Shown here: in pieces, positions 6,270-24,921 of the stretch | Numbering within the stretch: position 1 is the first letter of the stretch | Layout: every line of letters starts with the position of its first letter | Source of the DNA: Candidatus Woesearchaeota archaeon | GTDB taxonomy: Archaea; Nanobdellota; Nanobdellia; Pacearchaeales; GW2011-AR1 | Assembly: GCA_964639055.1 (NCBI GenBank) | Contig: CAZXBY010000001.1 | Span: 1-24,921, forward strand | Direction of reading: 5' to 3' | DNA length: 24,921 nucleotides | The notes under the pieces: generated by a model | Databases searched by the model: none | What the model saw: the letters and a program-made list of their open reading frames with translations, nothing else | What the model was told of the DNA's origin: nothing | Made by a program: the position numbers and the translations under genes

Positions 6270-7349
6270 ATGCCATTAGATTTTACAAAAGAAGCAATCG
6301 AAACCGCTGAAGCAAATAGTATTAACTTTAACGAACTTCGTGCTGGTAAAGCTAACATAAAAGTATTCGGATGTGGTGGCTGTGGTTGTAACATGGCAAC
6401 ATGGTTATTCAACAAAGGTATCAACGGTGCAATAGTTTACGGACTAAATACAGACGCATTACACCTTTCAATCACCAAAACCGATGAAAAAATTTTAATA
6501 GGTAAAGAACTCACTCGTGGACTAGGTTGCGGAGGCTATCCTAAACGAGGTCGAGAAGCTGCAAAAGAATCTCTTACTGACCTGAAAAAAGCTGTTTCCA
6601 ATTCAGATATGGTTTTTGTTCTGGCTGGTATGGGAGGAGGAACTGGAACAGGTGCAATCCCTGTCGTAGCTCAACTCGCCAAAGATGCAGGAGCAGTCGT
6701 AATCGCCGTAGTCACAATGCCTTTCGAAGCTGAAAAAGCACGAATAGATAAAGCAGAGTTCGGCCTACAAGAGTTACGAGAATCGGTTGACACTGTGATT
6801 GTACTAGACAATAATCGTTTAGTAGACATAGCAGGTCAACTACCTATGGAACAAGCTTTCGCTGTCGCGAATGAATTAGTCTCAACAATGATTAAAGGAA
6901 TTGTAGAAACAATCACTTTACCATCATTAATTAATCTAGATTATGCCGATGTATCCTCAATAATGAAAAACGGAGATGTCGCTGTAATTGGAATAGGTGA
7001 AGACAATTCAAATGCTAAAGTTGATGCAGCCGTTCAACAAGCTCTAACACATCCATTATTAGATGTAGACTATAGAGGAGCCACAGGTGCATTAATTCAT
7101 GTAACCGCTGGACCCGATTTAAAATTAGAAGAGTTTGATAACATTGGTCGACTCGTAACCGAGAATTTATCACCAGAAGCGCAGGTAATAATCGGAGCTC
7201 GAGTAAATAAAGAATTTCAAGGACGAGTAAGAGTCATAACAATTATGACAGGAGTTAAATCTCCATATATTCTTGGAAAAAATCAACCAACGTTTAATGA
7301 AGAGCGACATGTTAGTATAAACGACCTAGGCCTAGACGATTTAGCCTAA
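6270..7349 (+). CDS. ftsZ: Cell division GTPase FtsZ (archaeal)
   Basis: GCGGCG T1 loop, NTD, TRGLGCGG, tubulin signature GMGGGTGTG and T7 loop NLDYADV. Confidence 0.97.
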   Translation: MPLDFTKEAIETAEANSINFNELRAGKANIKVFGCGGCGCNMATWLFNKGINGAIVYGLNTDALHLSITKTDEKILIGKELTRGLGCGGYPKRGREAAKESLTDLKKAVSNSDMVFVLAGMGGGTGTGAIPVVAQLAKDAGAVVIAVVTMPFEAEKARIDKAEFGLQELRESVDTVIVLDNNRLVDIAGQLPMEQAFAVANELVSTMIKGIVETITLPSLINLDYADVSSIMKNGDVAVIGIGEDNSNAKVDAAVQQALTHPLLDVDYRGATGALIHVTAGPDLKLEEFDNIGRLVTENLSPEAQVIIGARVNKEFQGRVRVITIMTGVKSPYILGKNQPTFNEERHVSINDLGLDDLA

Positions 7350-18659: not shown

Positions 18660-19085
18660 ATGGAAATAAGCGAAATACCTGGAAATACCTATCAAGGCGG
18701 GTTTTCTAATGAAGATTCTTTGAATACCTTGGGCAAGGTAAAAATAGACTCCTTAAAAGAGAATATCAATGAAATAGAGGATCAACTTAGTGAAAGACAG
18801 GATATTAGTTCTGAGTTTGAAAAAGAGGGAGAAAAGATGAAAAGAGACATTAATAATTTTTTATCTGAAAATTCACCTAAGGGTGAAGATGATTCTGAAT
18901 TTGCACGAGAAAGAGCAGAATTAAGGCGAAAAAAGATTGAGATTAGCGAAATGCAGTTGAATGAGAAGGTTAATTGCTGGAAAGATGTTGTTCTTTTAAA
19001 AAAGGATTTAAGAGAAAAGCAAAAAGAACTTTTTGAGAGAGAGAACAGAATGGAGACAATTAATCAAATTTTAGGAGATAAATAA
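18660..19085 (+). CDS. Coiled-coil protein, about 141 aa; first gene of the ATPase operon
   Basis: ATG 18660 is 21 nt after GAAGTTTTATAAA (18626-18638). Long heptad-like E/K-rich helices surround EKVNCWKDVVLLKKDLRE. Confidence 0.85.
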   Translation: MEISEIPGNTYQGGFSNEDSLNTLGKVKIDSLKENINEIEDQLSERQDISSEFEKEGEKMKRDINNFLSENSPKGEDDSEFARERAELRRKKIEISEMQLNEKVNCWKDVVLLKKDLREKQKELFERENRMETINQILGDK

Positions 19086-19086
19086 T

Positions 19087-19413
19087 ATGGCTACCAGATA
19101 CCATTTTGGAGACATAAATACGCTTGATTCTTCTCAGGTTAGGAGTGCGGTTGAAAGAGCGGAAAGGGACATAACTGATGTTTTAGACGTTTTTTTAAAC
19201 GATGGTGTTTCTTTGGGAGCTAAGCCTTCTGTAAGGATTGAAGATTTAAATGGATACTATGCTGATGTTAGGGATAGACTTGAAGAATTAGGAGAGGCTT
19301 ATTTTGAAAAACAAGGAGAACATCCTCCTAAATATGAAGGAGCTATTAGAAAAGTTGATATTATTTTGGGACATTTACAAGATTTAGAATCTCGTCAGGA
19401 AGGTTCAAGATGA
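19087..19413 (+). CDS. Hypothetical acidic helical protein, 108 aa
   Basis: Starts 1 nt after the upstream stop, has GGAG upstream, and has an ATGA overlap with the ATPase. Confidence 0.8.
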   Translation: MATRYHFGDINTLDSSQVRSAVERAERDITDVLDVFLNDGVSLGAKPSVRIEDLNGYYADVRDRLEELGEAYFEKQGEHPPKYEGAIRKVDIILGHLQDLESRQEGSR

Positions 19414-21671
19414 TAAGTCAGAGAGCGTTAACAGCTGAAGATATTTGCCAAAAGCTTAAACCTATTTATGGGAATAAGATTGACAAAATTTATTTTAATT
19501 ATGCTACTAGCGAAAGCAGGGAAGCAAAAGAAGAACTTCTGTCAATGATGAACGCACTTTATCAGAAGCATTTTAATGAACTTTTAGGACAGAAGATGCT
19601 TTTGTCTCCACCCAATGGAAAGGACGTTCAAGGAGACTATAAAATTGGCGAAGTTATGTATGGAAAAAATAATGTTTGCTCATTTTCCTTGAGAGAAAAG
19701 GATTTTCCTAGGCATGTTTGTATTAGTGGAATGAGTGGTAGTGGGAAGACTACACTTGCATTTAATGTTCTTGAATCTTTAACTGCAAAAGATAAACCAT
19801 TTTTGGTTTTTGATTGGAAGAAATCTTTTAGGCCTCTTTTAGCTAAGGATGAAAAAATTGCGTGTTTTACTATTGGCGACAATAAATTGGCTAATAACTT
19901 TAAGTTGAATTTAAATCAACCGCCTAAAGGAATTGCTCCGAAAGAATGGATTACAATTATTTGTGATTTGATTGCTGAGAGTTTTTTTGTTTCTTATGGT
20001 GTTCATAAGATTCTTCTTGAGACTTTGGATGAATCATTTAAGGAGTGGGGAATTTATAGTGGAAGCAACAATTATCCTACTTGGAATCACATCAAATGGA
20101 GACTTGAAGAGAAATTAGAAAAATCTAAAAGTAGAGCACAGGGTTGGATTGAATCAGCGTTAAGGGTTGCAACAGTTTTGACATTTGGAGATTTTGGTGA
20201 GGTTATGAATTATAAGGGCGGAAAAAGTGTTTCTGTTGAGGATATCATGAAGGGCAGGGTTATCTTTGAAATGAATTCACTTGGTAGTATTGAGAAAAAA
20301 TTCTTTTGTGAGTTTATTTTAATGTATATTTACAAGTTAAAAAAGGCTGGAGCAAACGGCATTGAGAATAGTTTTGATTATGCTATTTTAGTTGATGAAG
20401 CCCATAATATTTTTTTAAAGGATAAGACTAATTTTACTCAGGAATCTGTTACTGATATGATTTATAGGGAGATGAGAGAGTATGGTATTAGTTTAATTTG
20501 TTTAGATCAACATATTTCAAAACTTTCTGATACTGTTAAGGGAAACAGTGCTTGTCATATTGCTTTTCAGCAACAATTACCTGACGATATCGACGCTATT
20601 AGTCGTTTGATGCATTTATATGACCAGAAGGAATTATTTTCAAGTTTAAAGGTTGGTAGTGCTGTTGTTAAACTGAGTGAGAGGTATACTAAGCCGTTTT
20701 CTATTCAAGCTCCTTGGACTGACATTAGAAAGTTAAAAGTTAGCGAGAGTGATATTAAGGGAAGAGTTCAAAGATTTTTAATGGGGAATGAATTTGTTAA
20801 CAATACTGATAAACAATTTAATGAAGAATTAAAGGCTGGAAAAAGCTTTGACTTGAATAAATTATTTTCTAAGATTCATTTGCCGAAGTTAAATTTAAGA
20901 GCTACTCAGAGTGAAGTTGTTAGTAATCCCTCTAACATTAGTTATCTTAATGATAATCCTGAAAAAGACCCCACAAAACCTTTAATCAATCTTAAGGGTA
21001 ATCTTGTTTATGATGCTGAGAAAGAACCTGAAAGTTCTCTTTCTGAAGAGGAAACTGTTTACGCTACTATTAAGAAGAAAATTGATAATGGAGAAGAGTT
21101 GAATGATATTGAAAAGAAATTAGAGTTTATCTATAATCCTGTAGCTGTTAATAAGGCGGTTAACAGGGTTTTTGAGGAACAATTGTCTAAGAAGATGACT
21201 ATTCGGGTTAAAGAAGCTTCTATACCTCAGAATGAGTTCTTTGAGAGTGAAAATAATGAGGGGAAAGGTAAAGAGGAAAAAACTATTATTGAAGAAGTTC
21301 CTATGTCAATAGATGGTAAAAGTGATTTTTTGGTTCCTAAGATGCCTTTAATGCTATCTGAATCAGGTATACCAATAGAAAAATGTAATATGCCTCTTAA
21401 ACATAGGGGAAACAAGGGCGAACAAAAGCTTTATAAAACGTCATTATCTAGTAGTAAACACAGAGGTTTAAGCGATGAGGAGAGTAAATTCATTACTTTT
21501 CTTGAATCAAATCCAGACCATGGATTAACAACGGTTAATCTGTATAAGGCAGTTGGTTTTTCTCCAAGAAAGGGGAATAAAATCAAGAACCTTTTAGTAG
21601 GAAAAGAGTTATTAAAGGTTCAAGAGATTAAGTACAACAAGGGCTGGAAAAAGATTATTAGATTAAACTAA
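19410..21671 (+). CDS. HerA/VirB4/TraG-like (FtsK-HerA superfamily) P-loop ATPase with C-terminal winged-helix-like domain
   Basis: FPRHVCISGMSGSGKTT (Walker A), ILVDEAHN (Walker B), EMREYGISLICLDQH, and VKGNSACHIAF. The C-terminal about 65 aa read LSDEESKFITFLESNPDHGLTTVNLYKAVGFSPRKGNKIKNLLVGKELLKVQEIKYNKGWKKIIRLN. Confidence 0.9.
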   Translation: MISQRALTAEDICQKLKPIYGNKIDKIYFNYATSESREAKEELLSMMNALYQKHFNELLGQKMLLSPPNGKDVQGDYKIGEVMYGKNNVCSFSLREKDFPRHVCISGMSGSGKTTLAFNVLESLTAKDKPFLVFDWKKSFRPLLAKDEKIACFTIGDNKLANNFKLNLNQPPKGIAPKEWITIICDLIAESFFVSYGVHKILLETLDESFKEWGIYSGSNNYPTWNHIKWRLEEKLEKSKSRAQGWIESALRVATVLTFGDFGEVMNYKGGKSVSVEDIMKGRVIFEMNSLGSIEKKFFCEFILMYIYKLKKAGANGIENSFDYAILVDEAHNIFLKDKTNFTQESVTDMIYREMREYGISLICLDQHISKLSDTVKGNSACHIAFQQQLPDDIDAISRLMHLYDQKELFSSLKVGSAVVKLSERYTKPFSIQAPWTDIRKLKVSESDIKGRVQRFLMGNEFVNNTDKQFNEELKAGKSFDLNKLFSKIHLPKLNLRATQSEVVSNPSNISYLNDNPEKDPTKPLINLKGNLVYDAEKEPESSLSEEETVYATIKKKIDNGEELNDIEKKLEFIYNPVAVNKAVNRVFEEQLSKKMTIRVKEASIPQNEFFESENNEGKGKEEKTIIEEVPMSIDGKSDFLVPKMPLMLSESGIPIEKCNMPLKHRGNKGEQKLYKTSLSSSKHRGLSDEESKFITFLESNPDHGLTTVNLYKAVGFSPRKGNKIKNLLVGKELLKVQEIKYNKGWKKIIRLN

Positions 21672-21897
21672 TTTTCAAGCCCCGAAGCTTTTGATTTATT
21701 CTTCCAAAATTAAGTAAGGAAGAAAAATAAAAGAGTTTCAAAAAAAGGGTTAAGATAAAATATTGAAGAAGACAAAAGAAACTTAGAAAACAAATCATAA
21801 TTGCTTTAAACAAAAAAGCAAAGGCTTGAGTTAAAAAAACTTTAAGTCTAAATCACAAAATCATATTCAAATATTATTACACAAATCACAAACCACA

Positions 21898-22042
21898 AAC
21901 GACTACACTTCACTTAAGAAATTTTTCTTAAGTATTTACTAACGACTACATAAGAGACTACAAAAAATATAACAAAATATACAACAAAATATATAACAAA
22001 AACCCAAGAAATCCAAAAAAGACTTTCTTGATAACGACTACA
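21898..22042 (+). repeat. Direct repeats AACGACTACA x3 (plus variants)
   Basis: Exact copies at 21898-21907, 21941-21950 and 22033-22042. Variants GAGACTACA at 21954-21962 and AAACTACA at 22111-22118. All are in the same orientation. Confidence 0.85.
21912..21933. repeat. Perfect inverted repeat ACTTAAGAAA-TT-TTTCTTAAGT
   Basis: 10-bp arms with a 2-nt spacer, lying between the first two AACGACTACA copies. Confidence 0.85.
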
Positions 22043-22121
22043 CCGATACGGATGTGAAAAAAACAACAAATCAACAAATCAAATTCTGAGAACTTAACAG
22101 AAAGAATACTAAACTACAAGT

Positions 22122-22191
22122 GAAATACCTTGAAATACCCAATTATGCACAGCGGAATACCCTTTCTATCGACGGAAATACCCGAAATACC
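22122..22191 (+). repeat. Iteron-like direct repeats GAAATACC x4 (+1 variant)
   Basis: Exact copies at 22122, 22132, 22175 and 22184 (two tandem pairs), with GGAATACC at 22154. Confidence 0.85.
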
Positions 22192-22319
22192 ATGAGATAT
22201 ATACTTTTTATGAAAGGATGCCATAATAAAAAAAGAAACCTAAAAAGAATGGAAGAGAAATATTAAGAAAAAACCAATCTTCTTGGAGCTTTAGGCTTTG
22301 AGTGATTAATGATACACTA

Positions 22320-22340
22320 TCTCAAACGAAATGTTTGAGA
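22320..22340. promoter_or_regulatory. Operator-like inverted repeat TCTCAAAC-gaaat-GTTTGAGA
   Basis: Perfect 8-bp arms with a 5-nt spacer, about 90 nt upstream of the first island gene. Confidence 0.4.
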
Positions 22341-22429
22341 AAAAGAGCTTTCAAGTTTTCTTGATCAAATGGATGGTCTAGCTTGAAGCTTAAGCAATTC
22401 TTTTCCACAAAAGGTGAAGGAGAAAAACT

Positions 22430-22954
22430 ATGTCATTTTTGACTGAATCCCTAAATAGGCCTCTTGATGGAACTAATAAGAGTAAGGTTTCAACTTGGAT
22501 TCCGATACTCTTGGTGTTTCTCCTCTCTCTCAACCTTTTTGTTGCCGTGTATAACTTGTTGGAAAATTCCCGTAAGGATGAGGAGAACATTCAGTTCGTT
22601 GTGAACTTTCTGATGGAGAGGGAAAGTGGATGTCGTGTGGAGGTCGGTGAACTTCTTGCTAAAAAAAGGAAACTGAGCAATGAGTTCTCTAAACGACGAA
22701 TCGACAAGGAAGAGCTCTCCTTGGAGGATATTGAGTCACTTAATCTTGAGCTACAGCAGTTCAATACAAGGATGGACGAGATTCAAGAAAGGATGTCTGT
22801 CTGCGAGATTATTATTGCTCGAGATTGGATTGACATTGCACGAATGGTTGACGAAAATGATGGGATTAATTTTCCACTTCCAGCCATTGAAATCATGAAA
22901 GCTTGGCACATACGTCAAAAAGGAGGTGACAACCGAAAAAAGACTGAGACGTAA
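22430..22954 (+). CDS. Membrane-anchored coiled-coil protein
   Basis: AAGGAG 7 nt upstream; single TM (WIPILLVFLLSLNLFVAVYNLL); helical hairpin with two Cys (GCRVE, MSVCE). Confidence 0.8.
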   Translation: MSFLTESLNRPLDGTNKSKVSTWIPILLVFLLSLNLFVAVYNLLENSRKDEENIQFVVNFLMERESGCRVEVGELLAKKRKLSNEFSKRRIDKEELSLEDIESLNLELQQFNTRMDEIQERMSVCEIIIARDWIDIARMVDENDGINFPLPAIEIMKAWHIRQKGGDNRKKTET

Positions 22955-23178
22955 GTTGGGAAGAACTTCCCTTTCATAGTACTGTGGTTAATTCTGCTGA
23001 TCTTATTAAAATAGAGAAGGAGGTAATCCTTGGAGCTAGATGAATGTTGAATTTCCAGTCCATCAATCCCCCCCATCCTAGCTTTGAATAGTCTGGAAAT
23101 TCGTTTTTCTCCCCGTTATGGACAATTTGAACAGAAAGGAGTCTTTTTTTATGAAACTGGAAAAGAGAAGAGGCAAAG

Positions 23179-23664
23179 ATGAATTCTTATATTTCGTTTG
23201 GCGTTTTGTTCGTTGCTGCTGTTTTTGCTCATTGTGCAAATGACGAACAAATGGTCGCATGGGCCGAGGTTCTTGATGTTTTGTCGGCTCTGGTTGTTGT
23301 TTATTACGTCGCTTTTTTGAAAATGAAGCCGAAGACACGATGGCATGGATTCTGGTTAGCGATGTTGACAATCTCAGTAATTACGCCATTCACAATTGTT
23401 TGTGTCTCTGATTTGAGTGGAGCTTGGGGACACAGAGTTAGTCAGGCATTTAGTCCTGATGAAGCTATTGTTGATGTGAGTGATGCGGGGTTGCAATTGC
23501 TTGGTGACGCTAAAGATACTTTCAAGATTCTTTTTAGAGCAGTTGTCATGACTGATCCACAGATTCTTGCAAGTTCAAAAAACCAGGTTCATTGGTGGAT
23601 TGCTTATGTTTTTGCTTTTATAGCGATTTGCTTTCTCATTCACAAAGGTGGCAAAAACCTATAA
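23179..23664 (+). CDS. Multi-pass membrane protein (3-4 hydrophobic segments)
   Basis: Hydrophobic stretches FGVLFVAAVFA, VLSALVVVYYVAFL, FWLAMLTISVITPFTIVCV and WWIAYVFAFIAICFLI. GAGG 5 nt upstream. Confidence 0.8.
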   Translation: MNSYISFGVLFVAAVFAHCANDEQMVAWAEVLDVLSALVVVYYVAFLKMKPKTRWHGFWLAMLTISVITPFTIVCVSDLSGAWGHRVSQAFSPDEAIVDVSDAGLQLLGDAKDTFKILFRAVVMTDPQILASSKNQVHWWIAYVFAFIAICFLIHKGGKNL

Positions 23665-23715
23665 AAAAACCTAAACCAATCTATCATTCCTTTTCACTAT
23701 TGGGAGGTCAATTAA

Positions 23716-24060
23716 ATGACAACTTTTTCAAAGAACACTATTCAGGACATTCTCCTAACGAGAGATGAAGAACAAATATGTAGAGCTTTTAAGGAAATCA
23801 AGTCATCATTTGCCTTTCTTATTGGGCAAGGGATGGGTGTAATTGAACGGATTCCCGAGATAAATTTGGCTTCCATTGGCTTCTATGACATTAGAGAAAG
23901 ATGGAGTTCTCTTGATCAAAGATGTTTAAAGAAAATGAAGGCCAAAGAAAATATACGTGGAGAGCTTCTCTCTGGTGAAGACGTCCCTTGTTTGGACTGG
24001 CTTATTCGACTACGTGGTCATTTGAACACGATTCAGAGGCTGCTTATTGGTATGAATTAG
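23716..24060 (+). CDS. Hypothetical helical protein, 114 aa
   Basis: GGGAGGT 7 nt before the ATG. No family recognised. Confidence 0.75.
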   Translation: MTTFSKNTIQDILLTRDEEQICRAFKEIKSSFAFLIGQGMGVIERIPEINLASIGFYDIRERWSSLDQRCLKKMKAKENIRGELLSGEDVPCLDWLIRLRGHLNTIQRLLIGMN

Positions 24061-24139
24061 CTGGAAGAAAGAACAAGTTCCTCTGGAATCAAAGGATCAA
24101 CTCGTTGTTTGTTTATTCAACTGTAACAAGGAGAAAGAC

Positions 24140-24232
24140 ATGAAGTCGTCAGGATTGACAAGGATGCAATGGATATTGTTGCTTTTGGATTTTGCTCTTG
24201 GGAGTATTGTAGCGAGCAGCCTAATCCCATAG
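24140..24232 (+). CDS. 30-aa hydrophobic peptide (below the ORF-track cutoff)
   Basis: AAGGAG 6 nt before the ATG. Sequence MKSSGLTRMQWILLLLDFALGSIVASSLIP*. Confidence 0.6.
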   Translation: MKSSGLTRMQWILLLLDFALGSIVASSLIP

Positions 24233-24337
24233 CAAAAAAATACAGGGGCAGAAAACATTTTACATCTGAGGTTCTTATTTTTTCAAGTGTATGTTTGCTC
24301 GAGAGAACTTTAGATATTCATAAGAGAAAGGAGAAAC

Positions 24338-24790
24338 GTGAACATAACTAAAAGGTTTGTCGAATTGTTGGGTGGTGAAGTAGAATGCCATAAAGAGACT
24401 ATAACGTCTATTCGTCTTTATGGTACAAAAACGATTGACTTAGACTTGGAGATTCTTCGTAGTCTTGGTAGGCTCGAAGAACTGGTTGAACTTGACCTTG
24501 CCAACACTGGCATCACAGACAGTGGTCTTGTTCGTCTTCGAAAGATCGAGAGTCTAAGGGGATTGACACTCAACAATACAGGTGTAACAGATGACGGTCT
24601 TGTGCATCTTCAGAGACTTGGCAACCTTGATCATCTTGATCTTGAGAATTTGTCAGTGACTAATTCTGGGCTTGTGCATCTTTATGCTTTCCAGAATCTC
24701 AGATTCCTAAATCTTTCTGGCACGAATGTGACAGAAGAAGGAATTCTTCGGCTGAAAAAAGCATTGCCGAAATGTGATGTTGATTATTAG
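24338..24790 (+). CDS. Leucine-rich repeat protein (four 24-aa RI/AMN1-like repeats)
   Basis: Repeats of the form LxxLxxLxLxxTx(I/V)TDxGLxxL with 24-residue period and an LKKALPKC cap. GTG start with AAGGAG 4 nt upstream. Confidence 0.9.
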   Translation: MNITKRFVELLGGEVECHKETITSIRLYGTKTIDLDLEILRSLGRLEELVELDLANTGITDSGLVRLRKIESLRGLTLNNTGVTDDGLVHLQRLGNLDHLDLENLSVTNSGLVHLYAFQNLRFLNLSGTNVTEEGILRLKKALPKCDVDY

Positions 24791-24800
24791 CCGGGAGTGG

Positions 24801-24921
24801 TAGCACTGAGAAAAAGTAGTTGCTAAGAGTTCGTTTCGTGCGGACCAAGACTGCAAAGAAGTAGTATTCTTTGGCATCTGGGTTGAGACCTCTATTATTG
24901 TAAAAGTACAAGGTAGGGGTC
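24801..24921 (+). ncRNA. Candidate structured RNA element (three successive hairpins)
   Basis: Hairpins at 24801-24825, 24843-24884 and 24887-24921. The last is a 15-bp stem with three G-U pairs on the + strand. No family recognised. Confidence 0.3.

What the first reader, a model, noticed from the sequence alone, without database searches (positions are those of the whole stretch)
22270..24921. Switch from leaderless archaeal genes to an SD-led membrane/LRR island
Seen: nearly all transcription-unit-leading genes before 21.7 kb have a TATA box 20-24 nt before the ATG. All five island genes instead have AAGGAG, GGAGGT or GAGG 4-7 nt upstream, and G+C is higher. The cargo is a TM coiled coil, a multi-pass membrane protein, a helical protein, a 30-aa peptide and an LRR protein. 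Inference: horizontally acquired bacterial- or virus-like DNA inserted beside the ATPase repeat array, possibly its cargo and relevant to cell-surface or host interaction. A misassembly is the main alternative.
Basis: partly seen in the sequence, partly recalled or inferred. Interest (0 to 1): 0.6.

Follow-up and report, generated by a model that had tools for sequence, protein, structure and literature searches.

The report
ATPase-linked array of foreign genes
The end of this tiny archaeon's contig is a real, horizontally acquired array of small membrane-protein and bacterial-type genes, and a comparable variable array follows the same conserved motor-ATPase operon in nearly every relative inspected, so it looks like a dedicated slot for foreign genes.

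Summary
Genome-wide, the TATA hexamer starts 28-30 nt before the ATG in half of unit-leading genes (leaderless design). None of 10 island ORFs has that. Four of the five window genes carry a strong Shine-Dalgarno (SD) motif. G+C, GC3 and tetranucleotide usage fall in the most deviant ~1% of the genome.

It is not a misassembly. An independent 11.9-kb assembly from another sample spans ThrRS, the ATPase and the island, and contig depth is even across the junction.

The island runs past the window. A bridging contig joins C1 over a 940-nt gap to contig C11. That gives about 13 co-oriented genes (~6.5 kb) between the HerA-like ATPase operon and ppsA, including a tandem CsrA-CsrA fusion.

The LRR gene was found in none of 300 other genomes of the order. 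Its relatives are Planctomycetota proteins. The 174-aa and 161-aa proteins are complete orphans.

Of 19 ATPase-bearing family members inspected (five genera), 17 show a variable, mostly orphan, membrane-protein-rich array after the operon, and it is G+C-richer than the flanks in most. One site is nearly empty and one contig ends too soon. Four genus members without the ATPase have no array upstream of ppsA.

No integrase, attC, tRNA or viral mark was found.

The scan noted this architecture earlier on other DNA (e1-1469791, e1-2844652).

Verdict: a real flexible island at an ATPase-linked hot spot; the capture mechanism is unknown.

The parts
18660..21671 (+). Conserved platform: coiled-coil protein (18660-19085), small protein (19087-19413) and HerA/FtsK-type ATPase (19410-21671). 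Composition is native.
   Evidence: Pfam DUF87, E 2.8e-8. Nearest solved structure is HerA 8xau, E 1.9e-6. Found in 15 of 24 genus members and in 14 of 199 sampled genomes from other genera of the family. Tetranucleotide distance is at the genome median.
21672..22429 (+). 758-nt non-coding leader between the ATPase stop and the first island gene. It holds the ACGACTAC and GAAATACC repeats and weak promoter-like sites at about 22003 and 22229.
   Evidence: No ORF with coding signal. Motif positions. Promoter PWM hits. Independent contigs start inside it but also span it.
22430..22954 (+). Island gene 1: 174 aa, one N-terminal TM segment, SD AAGGAG, GC3 0.45. Absolute orphan.
   Evidence: An exhaustive HMMER search of 1.84 billion representatives finds only itself.
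23179..23664 (+). Island gene 2: 161 aa, about 3 TM segments, weak SD (GAGG) and a near-TATA (TTTATG) at -31. Orphan.
   Evidence: Only itself was found among 5.8 billion clusters.
23716..24060 (+). Island gene 3: 114 aa, soluble, SD GGAGGT. A promoter-like site at 23649 would give a leader of about 27 nt.
   Evidence: No Pfam, PHROG or NCBIfam family. The Atlas model is of low confidence.
24140..24232 (+). 30-aa hydrophobic ORF with SD AAGGAG. It lies in the same frame as the LRR gene, with two stop codons between them.
   Evidence: No similarity to the N-terminal anchors of LRR homologues. Coding status is unproven.
24338..24790 (+). Island gene 5: 150-aa LRR protein of the Planctomycetota type, with four repeats and an LPxC cap. 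GTG start, SD AAGGAG. It lacks the N-terminal membrane anchor of its homologues.
   Evidence: Pfam LRR_4. 117 homologues, best 43-47% identity. tblastn matches 12 Planctomycetota loci, E down to 5e-24. Found in 0 of 300 other genomes of the order.
24791..24921 (+). Start of a 466-nt GGA-rich spacer that runs past the contig end. The island continues over a 940-nt gap into contig C11:1-3080 with eight more genes, among them a tandem CsrA, and ends before ppsA at C11:3361.
   Evidence: The bridging contig L058 overlaps window 24893-24921 and C11:1-3757 at 99.95% identity. Overlaps of 276 and 119 nt with L005, L002 and L006 are 100% identical. Gene list. CsrA.

Best explanation
Window 22270-24921 is the first third of a chromosomal array of about 6.5 kb and 13 genes. 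The genes are small, co-oriented and compositionally foreign. The array fills the gap between a conserved coiled-coil plus HerA/FtsK-type ATPase operon and the core gene ppsA.

Shown:
- The array is real DNA of this archaeon.
- It continues onto contig C11.
- Its genes lack the host's -28 TATA and mostly carry strong SD motifs.
- Its content is almost entirely species-specific and rich in membrane proteins.
- It includes bacterial-type genes: a Planctomycetota-type LRR and a tandem CsrA here; outer-membrane beta-barrel, PEP-CTERM and Lcl_C domains in relatives.
- A comparable variable array follows the ATPase operon in 17 of 19 carriers inspected (five genera). It was not found upstream of ppsA in four genus members in which the ATPase was not found.

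Inferred:
- The site is a high-turnover landing pad for horizontally acquired genes. These come partly from bacteria and partly from a gene pool shared between such arrays.
- Because incoming genes lack host-type promoters, they are probably transcribed from the leader or by read-through, as leadered or polycistronic mRNAs. SD-dependent initiation is then the only way to translate them. The host ribosome can do this, since a minority of native genes, mostly operon-internal, also use GGAGG-type SDs.
- How genes enter, and whether the ATPase acts in capture, in DNA handling or on the encoded proteins, is unknown.
For: Continuity:
- L008 (another sample, 11.9 kb) spans ThrRS through the LRR gene at 100% identity.
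- Logan contig depth is 4.8-6.6 (run X1) and mostly 5.4-6.7 where covered (run X2) on both sides of the junction.
- L058 bridges C1 to C11. ppsA sits at C11:3361, preceded by SD-led ORFs of G+C 0.39-0.46.

Expression signals:
- The TATA peak at -30..-28 is seen in 50% of leading genes and in 0 of 10 island ORFs.
- Promoter-PWM hits number 7 against about 38 expected at the genome-wide rate, part of which reflects the higher G+C.
- 9 of 13 array genes have a 5-mer SD or better.
- Pooled over 14 genomes of the genus, array ORFs have SD in 61/180 and TATA in 18/180. Flanking ORFs have 6/82 and 37/82 (Fisher p = 1.5e-6 and 5e-10).

Foreign composition:
-. The two island halves resemble each other (tetranucleotide r = 0.90).
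- Other deviant windows of the genome are large surface proteins with native GC3.

Foreign genes:
- LRR. Tandem CsrA, 145 bits against a cut-off of 73, with two matched stretches.
- CsrA is patchy in the order: 16 of 301 genomes over the cut-off.
- Cargo in relatives: OMP_b-brl twice, PEP-CTERM, Lcl_C plus fn3, and 2-Hacid_dh.

Hot spot:
- ATPase-to-ppsA spacing ranges from 0.77 to 15.9 kb in 12 genus members, with almost no shared genes. G042 shows the same layout.
- Arrays also follow the operon in G087, G091, G362 and G134, which belong to other genera and have other downstream neighbours. There 61 of 69 genes are singletons and 55 of 69 have a TM segment.
- A 95-aa family is shared by the arrays of G000, G134 and G362.
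- No array was seen upstream of ppsA in G010, G017, G073 and G006, where the ATPase was not found.
Against: - No recombinase, tRNA, direct-repeat boundary or attC-like site was found at the array, so no insertion mechanism is shown.
- There are no RNA data, so co-transcription is not shown. Spacers are long (51-466 nt), unlike native SD-using operons, whose genes overlap by 1-4 nt.
- The best LRR identity is only 43-47% and no donor is identified. Most cargo is orphan, so its origin cannot be assigned.
- SD use is not universal in arrays. In G091 the array genes carry a TATA-like ATATTAAC at about -27 and no SD. G018 and G022 arrays are not G+C-richer than their flanks.
- Co-occurrence of ATPase and array may reflect shared ancestry, because the relatives are not independent.
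- Gene calls were made with a crude ORF caller.
Confidence: 0.72

Rival explanations
1. The ATPase operon and the array together are an old integrated mobile element: a provirus, a plasmid or a conjative-type element. The HerA/FtsK-type ATPase would be its packaging or transfer motor, and the array its accessory genes.
For: - The ATPase is patchy in the family: 14 of 199 sampled genomes from other genera carry it. Identity is 46-64% both within and between genera.
- The unit sits in different chromosomal contexts in other genera.
- Weak Zot and Pox_A32 Pfam hits on the ATPase.
- The small, co-oriented orphan genes look virus-like.
Against: - The ATPase operon has native composition in every genome, while the array does not.
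- No integrase, att repeats, tRNA, capsid or replication gene was found. PHROGs match only CsrA.
- No relative was found in 2.9 million viral contigs.
- The position upstream of ppsA is kept in 13 genus members, including G000 and G042, while the content is not.
Confidence: 0.1
2. The array is a native, fast-evolving operon of surface and membrane proteins, with no horizontal transfer. Its raised G+C and its SDs would reflect expression needs, and its orphan status would reflect rapid divergence under host-interaction selection.
For: - About half or more of array proteins have TM segments, against 26-30% genome-wide.
- Some arrays hold paralogue expansions: family F2 five times in G024, and F6 in G009.
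- Upstream leaders are uniform within a genome.
- Native SD use exists in the host.
Against: - GC3, a synonymous measure, is raised in all 10 island ORFs. Native surface proteins keep native GC3.
- The LRR gene has 116 homologues elsewhere, with Planctomycetota among them, and none in 300 genomes of the order.
- Hallmarks of the Gram-negative envelope (OMP beta-barrel, PEP-CTERM) have no obvious role in an archaeon.
- A gene family is shared between the arrays of different genera.
Confidence: 0.1
3. The array is an integron-type cassette array, that is a cluster of attC sites without an integrase (CALIN), like those reported in DPANN archaea.
For: - It shares the logic of an integron: short co-oriented ORFs, mostly orphan, without their own promoters, expressed from one end, with repeats between genes that are uniform within a genome, and with bacterial-type cargo.
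- Archaeal integrons, mostly CALINs, are described in Nanoarchaeota (PMC9668308).
Against: - A scan for the R''...R' cores plus a hairpin found 0 candidates in 95.6 kb of arrays, against 2-9 in shuffled sequence.
- Tyrosine recombinase hits lie only on contigs C8, C67 and C4.
- The uniform repeats are 25-45-nt leaders just before the ATG, not 60-140-nt imperfect palindromes after each ORF.
Confidence: 0.04
4. The contig is an assembly chimera that joins an archaeal contig to bacterial or viral DNA.
For: - The island lies at a contig end.
- Several assemblies break near 21.8-21.9 kb and 24.9-25.0 kb.
- The genome is a 122-contig MAG.
Against: - An independent assembly spans the junction.
- Depth is even across it.
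- Bridging to C11 restores the ATPase-to-ppsA synteny seen in relatives, on contigs of up to 416 kb.
- The breaks are explained by internal repeats: the two CsrA domains are 75% alike, and there is a 104-nt repeat at 87.5%.
Confidence: 0.02

Closest known systems
Integron cassette arrays, including the archaeal integrons and CALINs of Ghaly et al. 2022 (PMC9668308)
   Same: A fixed platform followed by a variable, co-oriented array of short and mostly orphan genes that lack their own promoters. Sequences between the genes are uniform within a genome. Cargo crosses domains. Such arrays are reported in DPANN archaea.
   Different: No IntI and no attC-like sites were found. The adjacent conserved genes are a coiled-coil protein and a HerA/FtsK-type ATPase, not a tyrosine recombinase. 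The repeated sequences are 5' leaders.
Flexible genomic islands and hypervariable regions at fixed sites between core genes in streamlined genomes, for example SAR11 HVR2 and the Prochlorococcus islands (from my own knowledge)
   Same: The chromosomal position is conserved, the content is strain- or species-specific, the composition is atypical, and cell-surface functions are enriched.
   Different: Here the island travels with one particular ATPase operon across genera and chromosomal contexts. It also differs from the core genome in its mode of translation initiation.
The variable region downstream of essC in type VIIb secretion loci of Firmicutes (from my own knowledge)
   Same: An ATPase of the FtsK/HerA superfamily has a variable C-terminal part (residues ~480-680 align poorly between relatives). 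It is followed by a hypervariable run of small helical and polytopic membrane proteins.
   Different: No WXG100, LXG or other T7SS component was detected by Pfam. The ATPase ends in a winged helix and is flanked by phased DNA repeats, according to earlier notes, which points to DNA. The secretion idea is untested.
The dual initiation modes of archaea: leaderless first genes and SD-led distal genes of operons (established knowledge)
   Same: The host uses both modes. TATA sits at -28 for leading genes, and GGAGG-type SDs peak at -15..-10 for a minority of genes, mostly internal ones.
   Different: The island genes are separated by 51-466 nt rather than being translationally coupled, and they are compositionally foreign.

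Membership tests
Horizontally acquired flexible genomic island | Composition differs from the host genome | tested here: met
   G+C is in the top 0.8% of windows. Tetranucleotide distance is in the top 0.7-1.1%. GC3 is 0.34-0.47 against 0.254.
Horizontally acquired flexible genomic island | Variable content at a conserved position, with empty or near-empty sites in relatives | tested here: met
   ATPase-to-ppsA spacing is 0.77-15.9 kb. G003 has only 768 nt. Almost no genes are shared.
Horizontally acquired flexible genomic island | Cargo has its nearest relatives outside the lineage | tested here: met
   LRR: 0 of 300 other genomes of the order, with Planctomycetota relatives. For orphans such as the 174-aa and 161-aa proteins this cannot be assessed.
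Horizontally acquired flexible genomic island | Mobility genes or att sites at the borders | tested here: not met
   No integrase lies next to the array. No tRNA was found in 12 of 14 arrays. The conserved end element occurs only at the 3' border.
Integron / CALIN | attC sites (R''-L''...L'-R' imperfect palindromes) after each cassette | tested here: not met
   A crude core-plus-hairpin scan gave 0 hits in 95.6 kb, against 2-9 in shuffles. The curated attC covariance model was not available.
Integron / CALIN | IntI tyrosine recombinase next to the array | tested here: not met
   PF00589 hits lie only on C8, C67 and C4. No such gene was seen in the relatives' loci.
Integron / CALIN | Co-oriented short ORFs without their own promoters | tested here: met
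   All 13 genes are on the + strand. None of 10 ORFs has the -28 TATA, and the region is depleted in promoter-PWM hits.
Provirus or integrated plasmid | Viral hallmark or replication genes, or relatives in viral collections | tested here: not met
   PHROGs match only CsrA-like regulators. No relative was found in IMG/VR for the 161-aa protein or the ATPase.
Archaeal SD-led operon-internal genes | SD complementary to the 16S 3' end at about -8 to -15 | tested here: met
   The motifs were read directly. The 3' end of this genome's own 16S is not assembled. Native genes with GGAGGTGAT-type motifs imply a canonical anti-SD.
Archaeal SD-led operon-internal genes | One polycistronic transcript across the genes | not testable with these tools
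   No RNA run holds the stretch.
CsrA/RsmA family (the gene just beyond the window) | Passes the curated family thresholds | tested here: met
   PF02599 78 bits against 27. NF002469 145 bits against 73, with two domains at residues 1-56 and 74-131. PDB CsrA chains match with E down to 3e-13.
Type VII-like secretion locus with a variable effector region | WXG100/LXG substrates or other T7SS core components | tested here: not met
   No such Pfam family was found in the island or in 25 of the larger cargo proteins from relatives.

The most novel reading that the evidence does not exclude
The coiled-coil plus HerA/FtsK-type ATPase operon and its leader form a previously undescribed gene-capture or gene-display platform of DPANN archaea. 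It would be a functional analogue of an integron that works without a tyrosine recombinase and without attC sites. Foreign genes, largely bacterial membrane and surface genes, would be taken up next to the motor, given a genome-specific 5' leader and expressed through SD-dependent translation. A captured tandem CsrA might then act on those GGA-containing leaders.
Probability: 0.25. Interest if true: 0.85.

Novelty: new variant of a known kind. Interest (0 to 1): 0.6.

Why it matters
DPANN archaea have tiny genomes and depend on other cells. How they gain and renew surface and host-interaction genes is an open question.

This work points to one physically defined slot, tied to a conserved DNA-motor-like ATPase operon. 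At this slot, foreign genes, including hallmark bacterial envelope genes, accumulate and turn over across at least five genera.

The slot is also a natural experiment in gene expression. In a genome built for leaderless mRNAs, the imported genes rely on Shine-Dalgarno initiation.

If the ATPase takes part in capture, this would be a new route of cross-domain gene transfer. If it does not, the site is still a well-delimited archaeal integration hot spot that can be followed in metagenomic time series.

Tried and rejected
- Loose ends of Logan contigs at 20858, 21828 and 24855 looked like alternative junctions. The 30-mer found one JGI contig of an unrelated organism that shares only about 18 nt, so they are chance overlaps.
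- No RNA holder was listed for the stretch, so expression could not be examined.
- Rfam found nothing in the window or in C11.
- Sigma-70 promoter-like and intrinsic-terminator-like sites are at chance level in both island halves. No residual bacterial transcription signals are detectable.
- The attC-like scan was negative.
- ARAGORN found no tRNA at the array borders. The only hits were a doubtful tRNA-SeC in G005 and a tRNA-Val inside the G009 array.
- I tested whether the 30-aa ORF is the relic membrane anchor of a once full-length LRR gene. It is in frame, with two stops between, but has no detectable similarity to the N-termini of homologues. This remains unsupported.
- ESM Atlas look-ups for the 114-aa and 161-aa proteins gave only low-confidence models and sub-threshold hits.
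- The profile query for genome contigs failed, so a single homologue (P0025) was used instead.
- The 3' end of the 16S rRNA is not assembled in this genome, so the anti-SD could not be read directly.
- Two calls were wasted on wrong references.
Full report
**What the window is.** The window is the whole of contig C1 of a 794-kb, 122-contig genome bin. The bin is 78.8% complete with 0.65% contamination. It is archaeal. It carries a ThrRS with the archaea-specific editing domain, TYW3, a KaiC-type ATPase and a class I Trp/Tyr tRNA synthetase, and a partial archaeal SSU rRNA lies on another contig. Public runs that hold the sequence are salt-lake metagenomes.

The five + strand ORFs after 22.4 kb are preceded by AAGGAG, GAGG, GGAGGT, AAGGAG and AAGGAG, 4-8 nt from the start codon.
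- With a crude ORF caller over the whole genome, only 9% of genes (8% of unit-leading genes) have a 5-mer of AGGAGGTGA at -18..-3. Random 16-mers give 3.4%.
- The host's normal design is leaderless. The TATA hexamer start forms a very sharp peak at -30..-28 from the ATG. It occurs in 50% of 460 leading genes and in 13 of 23 pre-island ORFs of the window.
- None of 10 ORFs in the island (window part plus its continuation) has this TATA.
- A promoter PWM trained on the leaderless genes finds 7 sites in the 7.6-kb interval, where the genome-wide rate predicts about 38. The best is the ppsA promoter at the far end.
- Native SD use exists: motif starts peak at -15..-10. It is scattered and mostly in genes that overlap their upstream neighbour by 1-4 nt.
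- Gene 23179 is the weak case, with only GAGG and a near-TATA (TTTATG) at -31.

**Composition is foreign.**
- Island G+C is 0.398 against 0.323 for the genome, in the top 0.8% of 2.5-kb windows.
- Tetranucleotide distance to the genome mean is in the most deviant 0.7%.
- GC3 of every island ORF is at least 0.34, which only 8.7% of other genes reach (Mann-Whitney p = 2.4e-7).
- The other compositionally odd windows of the genome are large surface proteins whose GC3 is native. The island is therefore the genome's clearest multi-gene deviation at synonymous sites. Only C13:5130-11301 shows a milder cluster of this kind.

**It is not a chimera.**
- Exact-protein look-ups recovered contigs from several other samples, all 100% identical to the window.
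- One of them, L008 (11.9 kb, sample ERZ27315904), runs from ThrRS through the ATPase and the 758-nt leader to the LRR gene.
- Logan contig depth is the same on both sides of the junction: 4.8-6.6 in X1, and mostly 5.4-6.7 where X2 covers the stretch.

**The island continues past the window.**
- In relatives, the gene after the variable stretch is a PEP synthase, ppsA (Pfam PPDK_N plus PEP-utilizers_C).
- In this genome ppsA lies at C11:3361. The 3.1 kb before it hold SD-led small ORFs of G+C 0.39-0.46.
- Contig L058 from another sample begins with the last 29 nt of the window. It overlaps L005, L002 and L006 by 276 and 119 nt at 100% identity, and then matches C11:1-3757 at 99.95%.
- The gap between C1 and C11 is therefore 940 nt. 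The ATPase-to-ppsA interval is 7,550 nt, and the array holds about 13 + strand genes, of which 9 have a 5-mer SD or better.
- The two island halves share composition (tetranucleotide r = 0.90).
- The assemblies break here because of internal repeats: a 104-nt repeat at 87.5% identity, and two CsrA domains that are 75% alike.

**Cargo.**
- The 150-aa LRR protein passes Pfam LRR_4. It has 117 homologues in the 5.8-billion-cluster collection, the best at 43-47% identity.
- It was found in none of 300 other genomes of its order.
- A search of GTDB genomes with a homologue that is 47% identical to it returned 15 loci, all Planctomycetota. The window's own protein matches 12 of these by tblastn, with E down to 5e-24.
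- The window's copy lacks the N-terminal membrane anchor that its homologues have.
- The 174-aa and 161-aa proteins matched only themselves, in an exhaustive HMMER search of 1.84 billion representatives and in the word-indexed collection.
- Just beyond the window lies a 133-aa tandem CsrA-CsrA fusion (NCBIfam 145 bits against a cut-off of 73, two domains). CsrA is a bacterial regulator that binds GGA motifs in SD regions. It is patchy in this archaeal order, with 16 of 301 genomes over the cut-off.
- Only CsrA is shared with a same-genus array, that of G263.

**The site is a hot spot tied to the ATPase operon.**
- The ATPase occurs in 15 of 24 sampled genus members.
- In 12 genus members with long contigs, the ATPase stop and ppsA are 0.77, 1.5, 3.5, 3.6, 4.3, 4.5, 4.6, 7.55, 10.4, 11.0, 12.6 and 15.9 kb apart. 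G042 shows the same layout.
- The interval is filled with co-oriented small ORFs that are almost all singletons.
- Pooled over 14 genomes, array ORFs carry an SD in 61/180 and the TATA in 18/180. Flanking ORFs carry them in 6/82 and 37/82 (Fisher p = 1.5e-6 and 5e-10).
- G+C exceeds that of the flanks in 11 of 14 genomes.
- G003 has an almost empty site of 768 nt.
- Cargo with a Pfam family includes two outer-membrane beta-barrels, a PEP-CTERM sorting signal, Lcl_C plus fn3, and a 2-hydroxyacid dehydrogenase. The first three are marks of the bacterial cell envelope.
- A conserved element closes the array in 11 of 14 genus members. It is a T-run followed by CCTATATACT..AATATAC..ATATATA, on the + strand only. 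G042 has one copy as well.

**The array follows the ATPase operon, not ppsA.**
- In four genus members in which the ATPase was not found (G010, G017, G073, G006; 87-92% complete), the DNA upstream of ppsA holds ordinary native genes on both strands and no end element.
- The ATPase was also found in 14 of 199 sampled genomes from other genera of the family.
- In all four of those inspected (G087, G091, G362, G134), the coiled-coil plus ATPase operon is again followed by a 5-14-kb array of co-oriented, G+C-richer small genes, with different downstream neighbours.
- In these four arrays 61 of 69 genes are singletons and 55 of 69 have a predicted TM segment. The G000 genome baseline is 26-30%.
- Within each genome, non-homologous array genes share a uniform 25-45-nt leader. 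In G087 it reads ATATTAAC..AAATTTAGGAGGACAAAA. G091 has an SD-less version. In G362 it reads ..GGAGG.(A/G)TGTC. G009 has a small hairpin plus GAAAGGAA.
- A 95-aa family is shared by the arrays of G000, G134 and G362. This suggests a gene pool that circulates between arrays.

**What it is not.** No tyrosine recombinase lies next to the array. No attC-like site was found, no tRNA or flanking direct repeats, no viral hallmark and no relative in viral contigs. Rfam found nothing, and bacterial promoter- and terminator-like sites are at chance level. The nearest solved relative of the ATPase is HerA.

**Reading.**
- The region is part of a real, horizontally fed, fast-turnover gene array at a hot spot physically linked to a conserved HerA/FtsK-type ATPase operon.
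- The switch in start signals follows from that. Imported genes lack the host's -28 TATA promoters. They are most likely transcribed from the leader or by read-through, so they need an SD, which the host ribosome can use.
- This expression model is inferred, not shown.
- Whether the ATPase helps capture DNA, segregates or protects the locus, or handles the encoded membrane proteins is open.

**Relation to earlier notes.** Earlier notes of this scan on other genomes describe the same pairing of a conserved ATPase module with a species-specific patch of orphan membrane-protein genes (e1-1469791, e1-2844652). I reached this independently here and extended it with:
- the bridging to ppsA;
- the SD and TATA statistics;
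- the bacterial-type cargo;
- the lack of an array in genomes where the ATPase was not found;
- the arrays in other genera.

Noticed in passing
L058:835-1236 (equals the C1-C11 gap plus C11:1-267), about 0.8-1.2 kb past the window end: A 133-aa protein made of two CsrA domains in one chain, in effect a single-chain 'dimer', preceded by GGAGGTG. CsrA is a bacterial regulator that binds GGA motifs in SD regions. Here it sits in an archaeal island whose genes are SD-led.
   Followed up: partly
window 24791-24921, continuing to L058:~437: The 466-nt spacer between the LRR gene and the 95-aa gene has the densest cluster of A.GGA motifs in the interval: 7 A.GGA and 10 GGA in 200 nt, with no TCC. It lies upstream of the CsrA gene and folds into many hairpins. 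It could be a CsrB/RsmZ-like decoy RNA or a CsrA-controlled leader. The statistics are weak.
   Followed up: partly
G000 contig C11:~3170-3240, and the 3' end of the arrays in G005, G007, G011, G013, G018, G022, G024, G001, G003, G263 and G042: A conserved element marks the downstream end of the array and is sometimes duplicated around a small minus-strand gene. It is a T-run followed by CCTATATACT..AATATAC.ATATT..ACATATATA, always on the + strand, 100-200 nt before ppsA. Its function is unknown: terminator plus promoter, binding site or small RNA.
   Followed up: partly
L116 (G087), L115 (G091), L118 (G362), L040 (G009): Non-homologous array genes share a genome-specific 25-45-nt leader. In G087 and G091 it includes ATATTAAC at about -27 to -30, the position of the host TATA. 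In G087 a GGAGG follows it, which would allow both leaderless and SD-led expression.
   Followed up: partly
L058:365-652; G134 array ORF at L119:8930; G362 array ORF at L118:15176: A 95-aa protein family with no Pfam match is shared by the arrays of three different genera. It is one of very few links between arrays.
   Followed up: no
L078, L079, L082 (genus g19): In a sister genus CsrA sits inside a conserved operon of native composition, among genes of about 225-280 aa. CsrA therefore seems domesticated in part of this archaeal family.
   Followed up: no
window 24140-24790: The 30-aa hydrophobic ORF and the LRR gene are in the same reading frame, separated by two stop codons (TAG and TAA). 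LRR homologues carry an N-terminal membrane anchor that the window's copy lacks.
   Followed up: partly
window 6270-7349: This is the only pre-island gene of the window with a strong SD (AAAGGAGGT) and no TATA. Its G+C is 0.39 but its GC3 is native (0.23).
   Followed up: no
G000 contig C13:5130-11301: A second multi-gene cluster with raised GC3 (0.365-0.384) and overlapping SD-led genes. It may be another acquired block.
   Followed up: no
G000 contig C11:3361-6405: ppsA of this genome encodes 1,014 aa, against open frames of 762-919 aa in relatives. The Pfam domains end at residue 746, so it has an unexplained C-terminal extension of about 270 aa.
   Followed up: no
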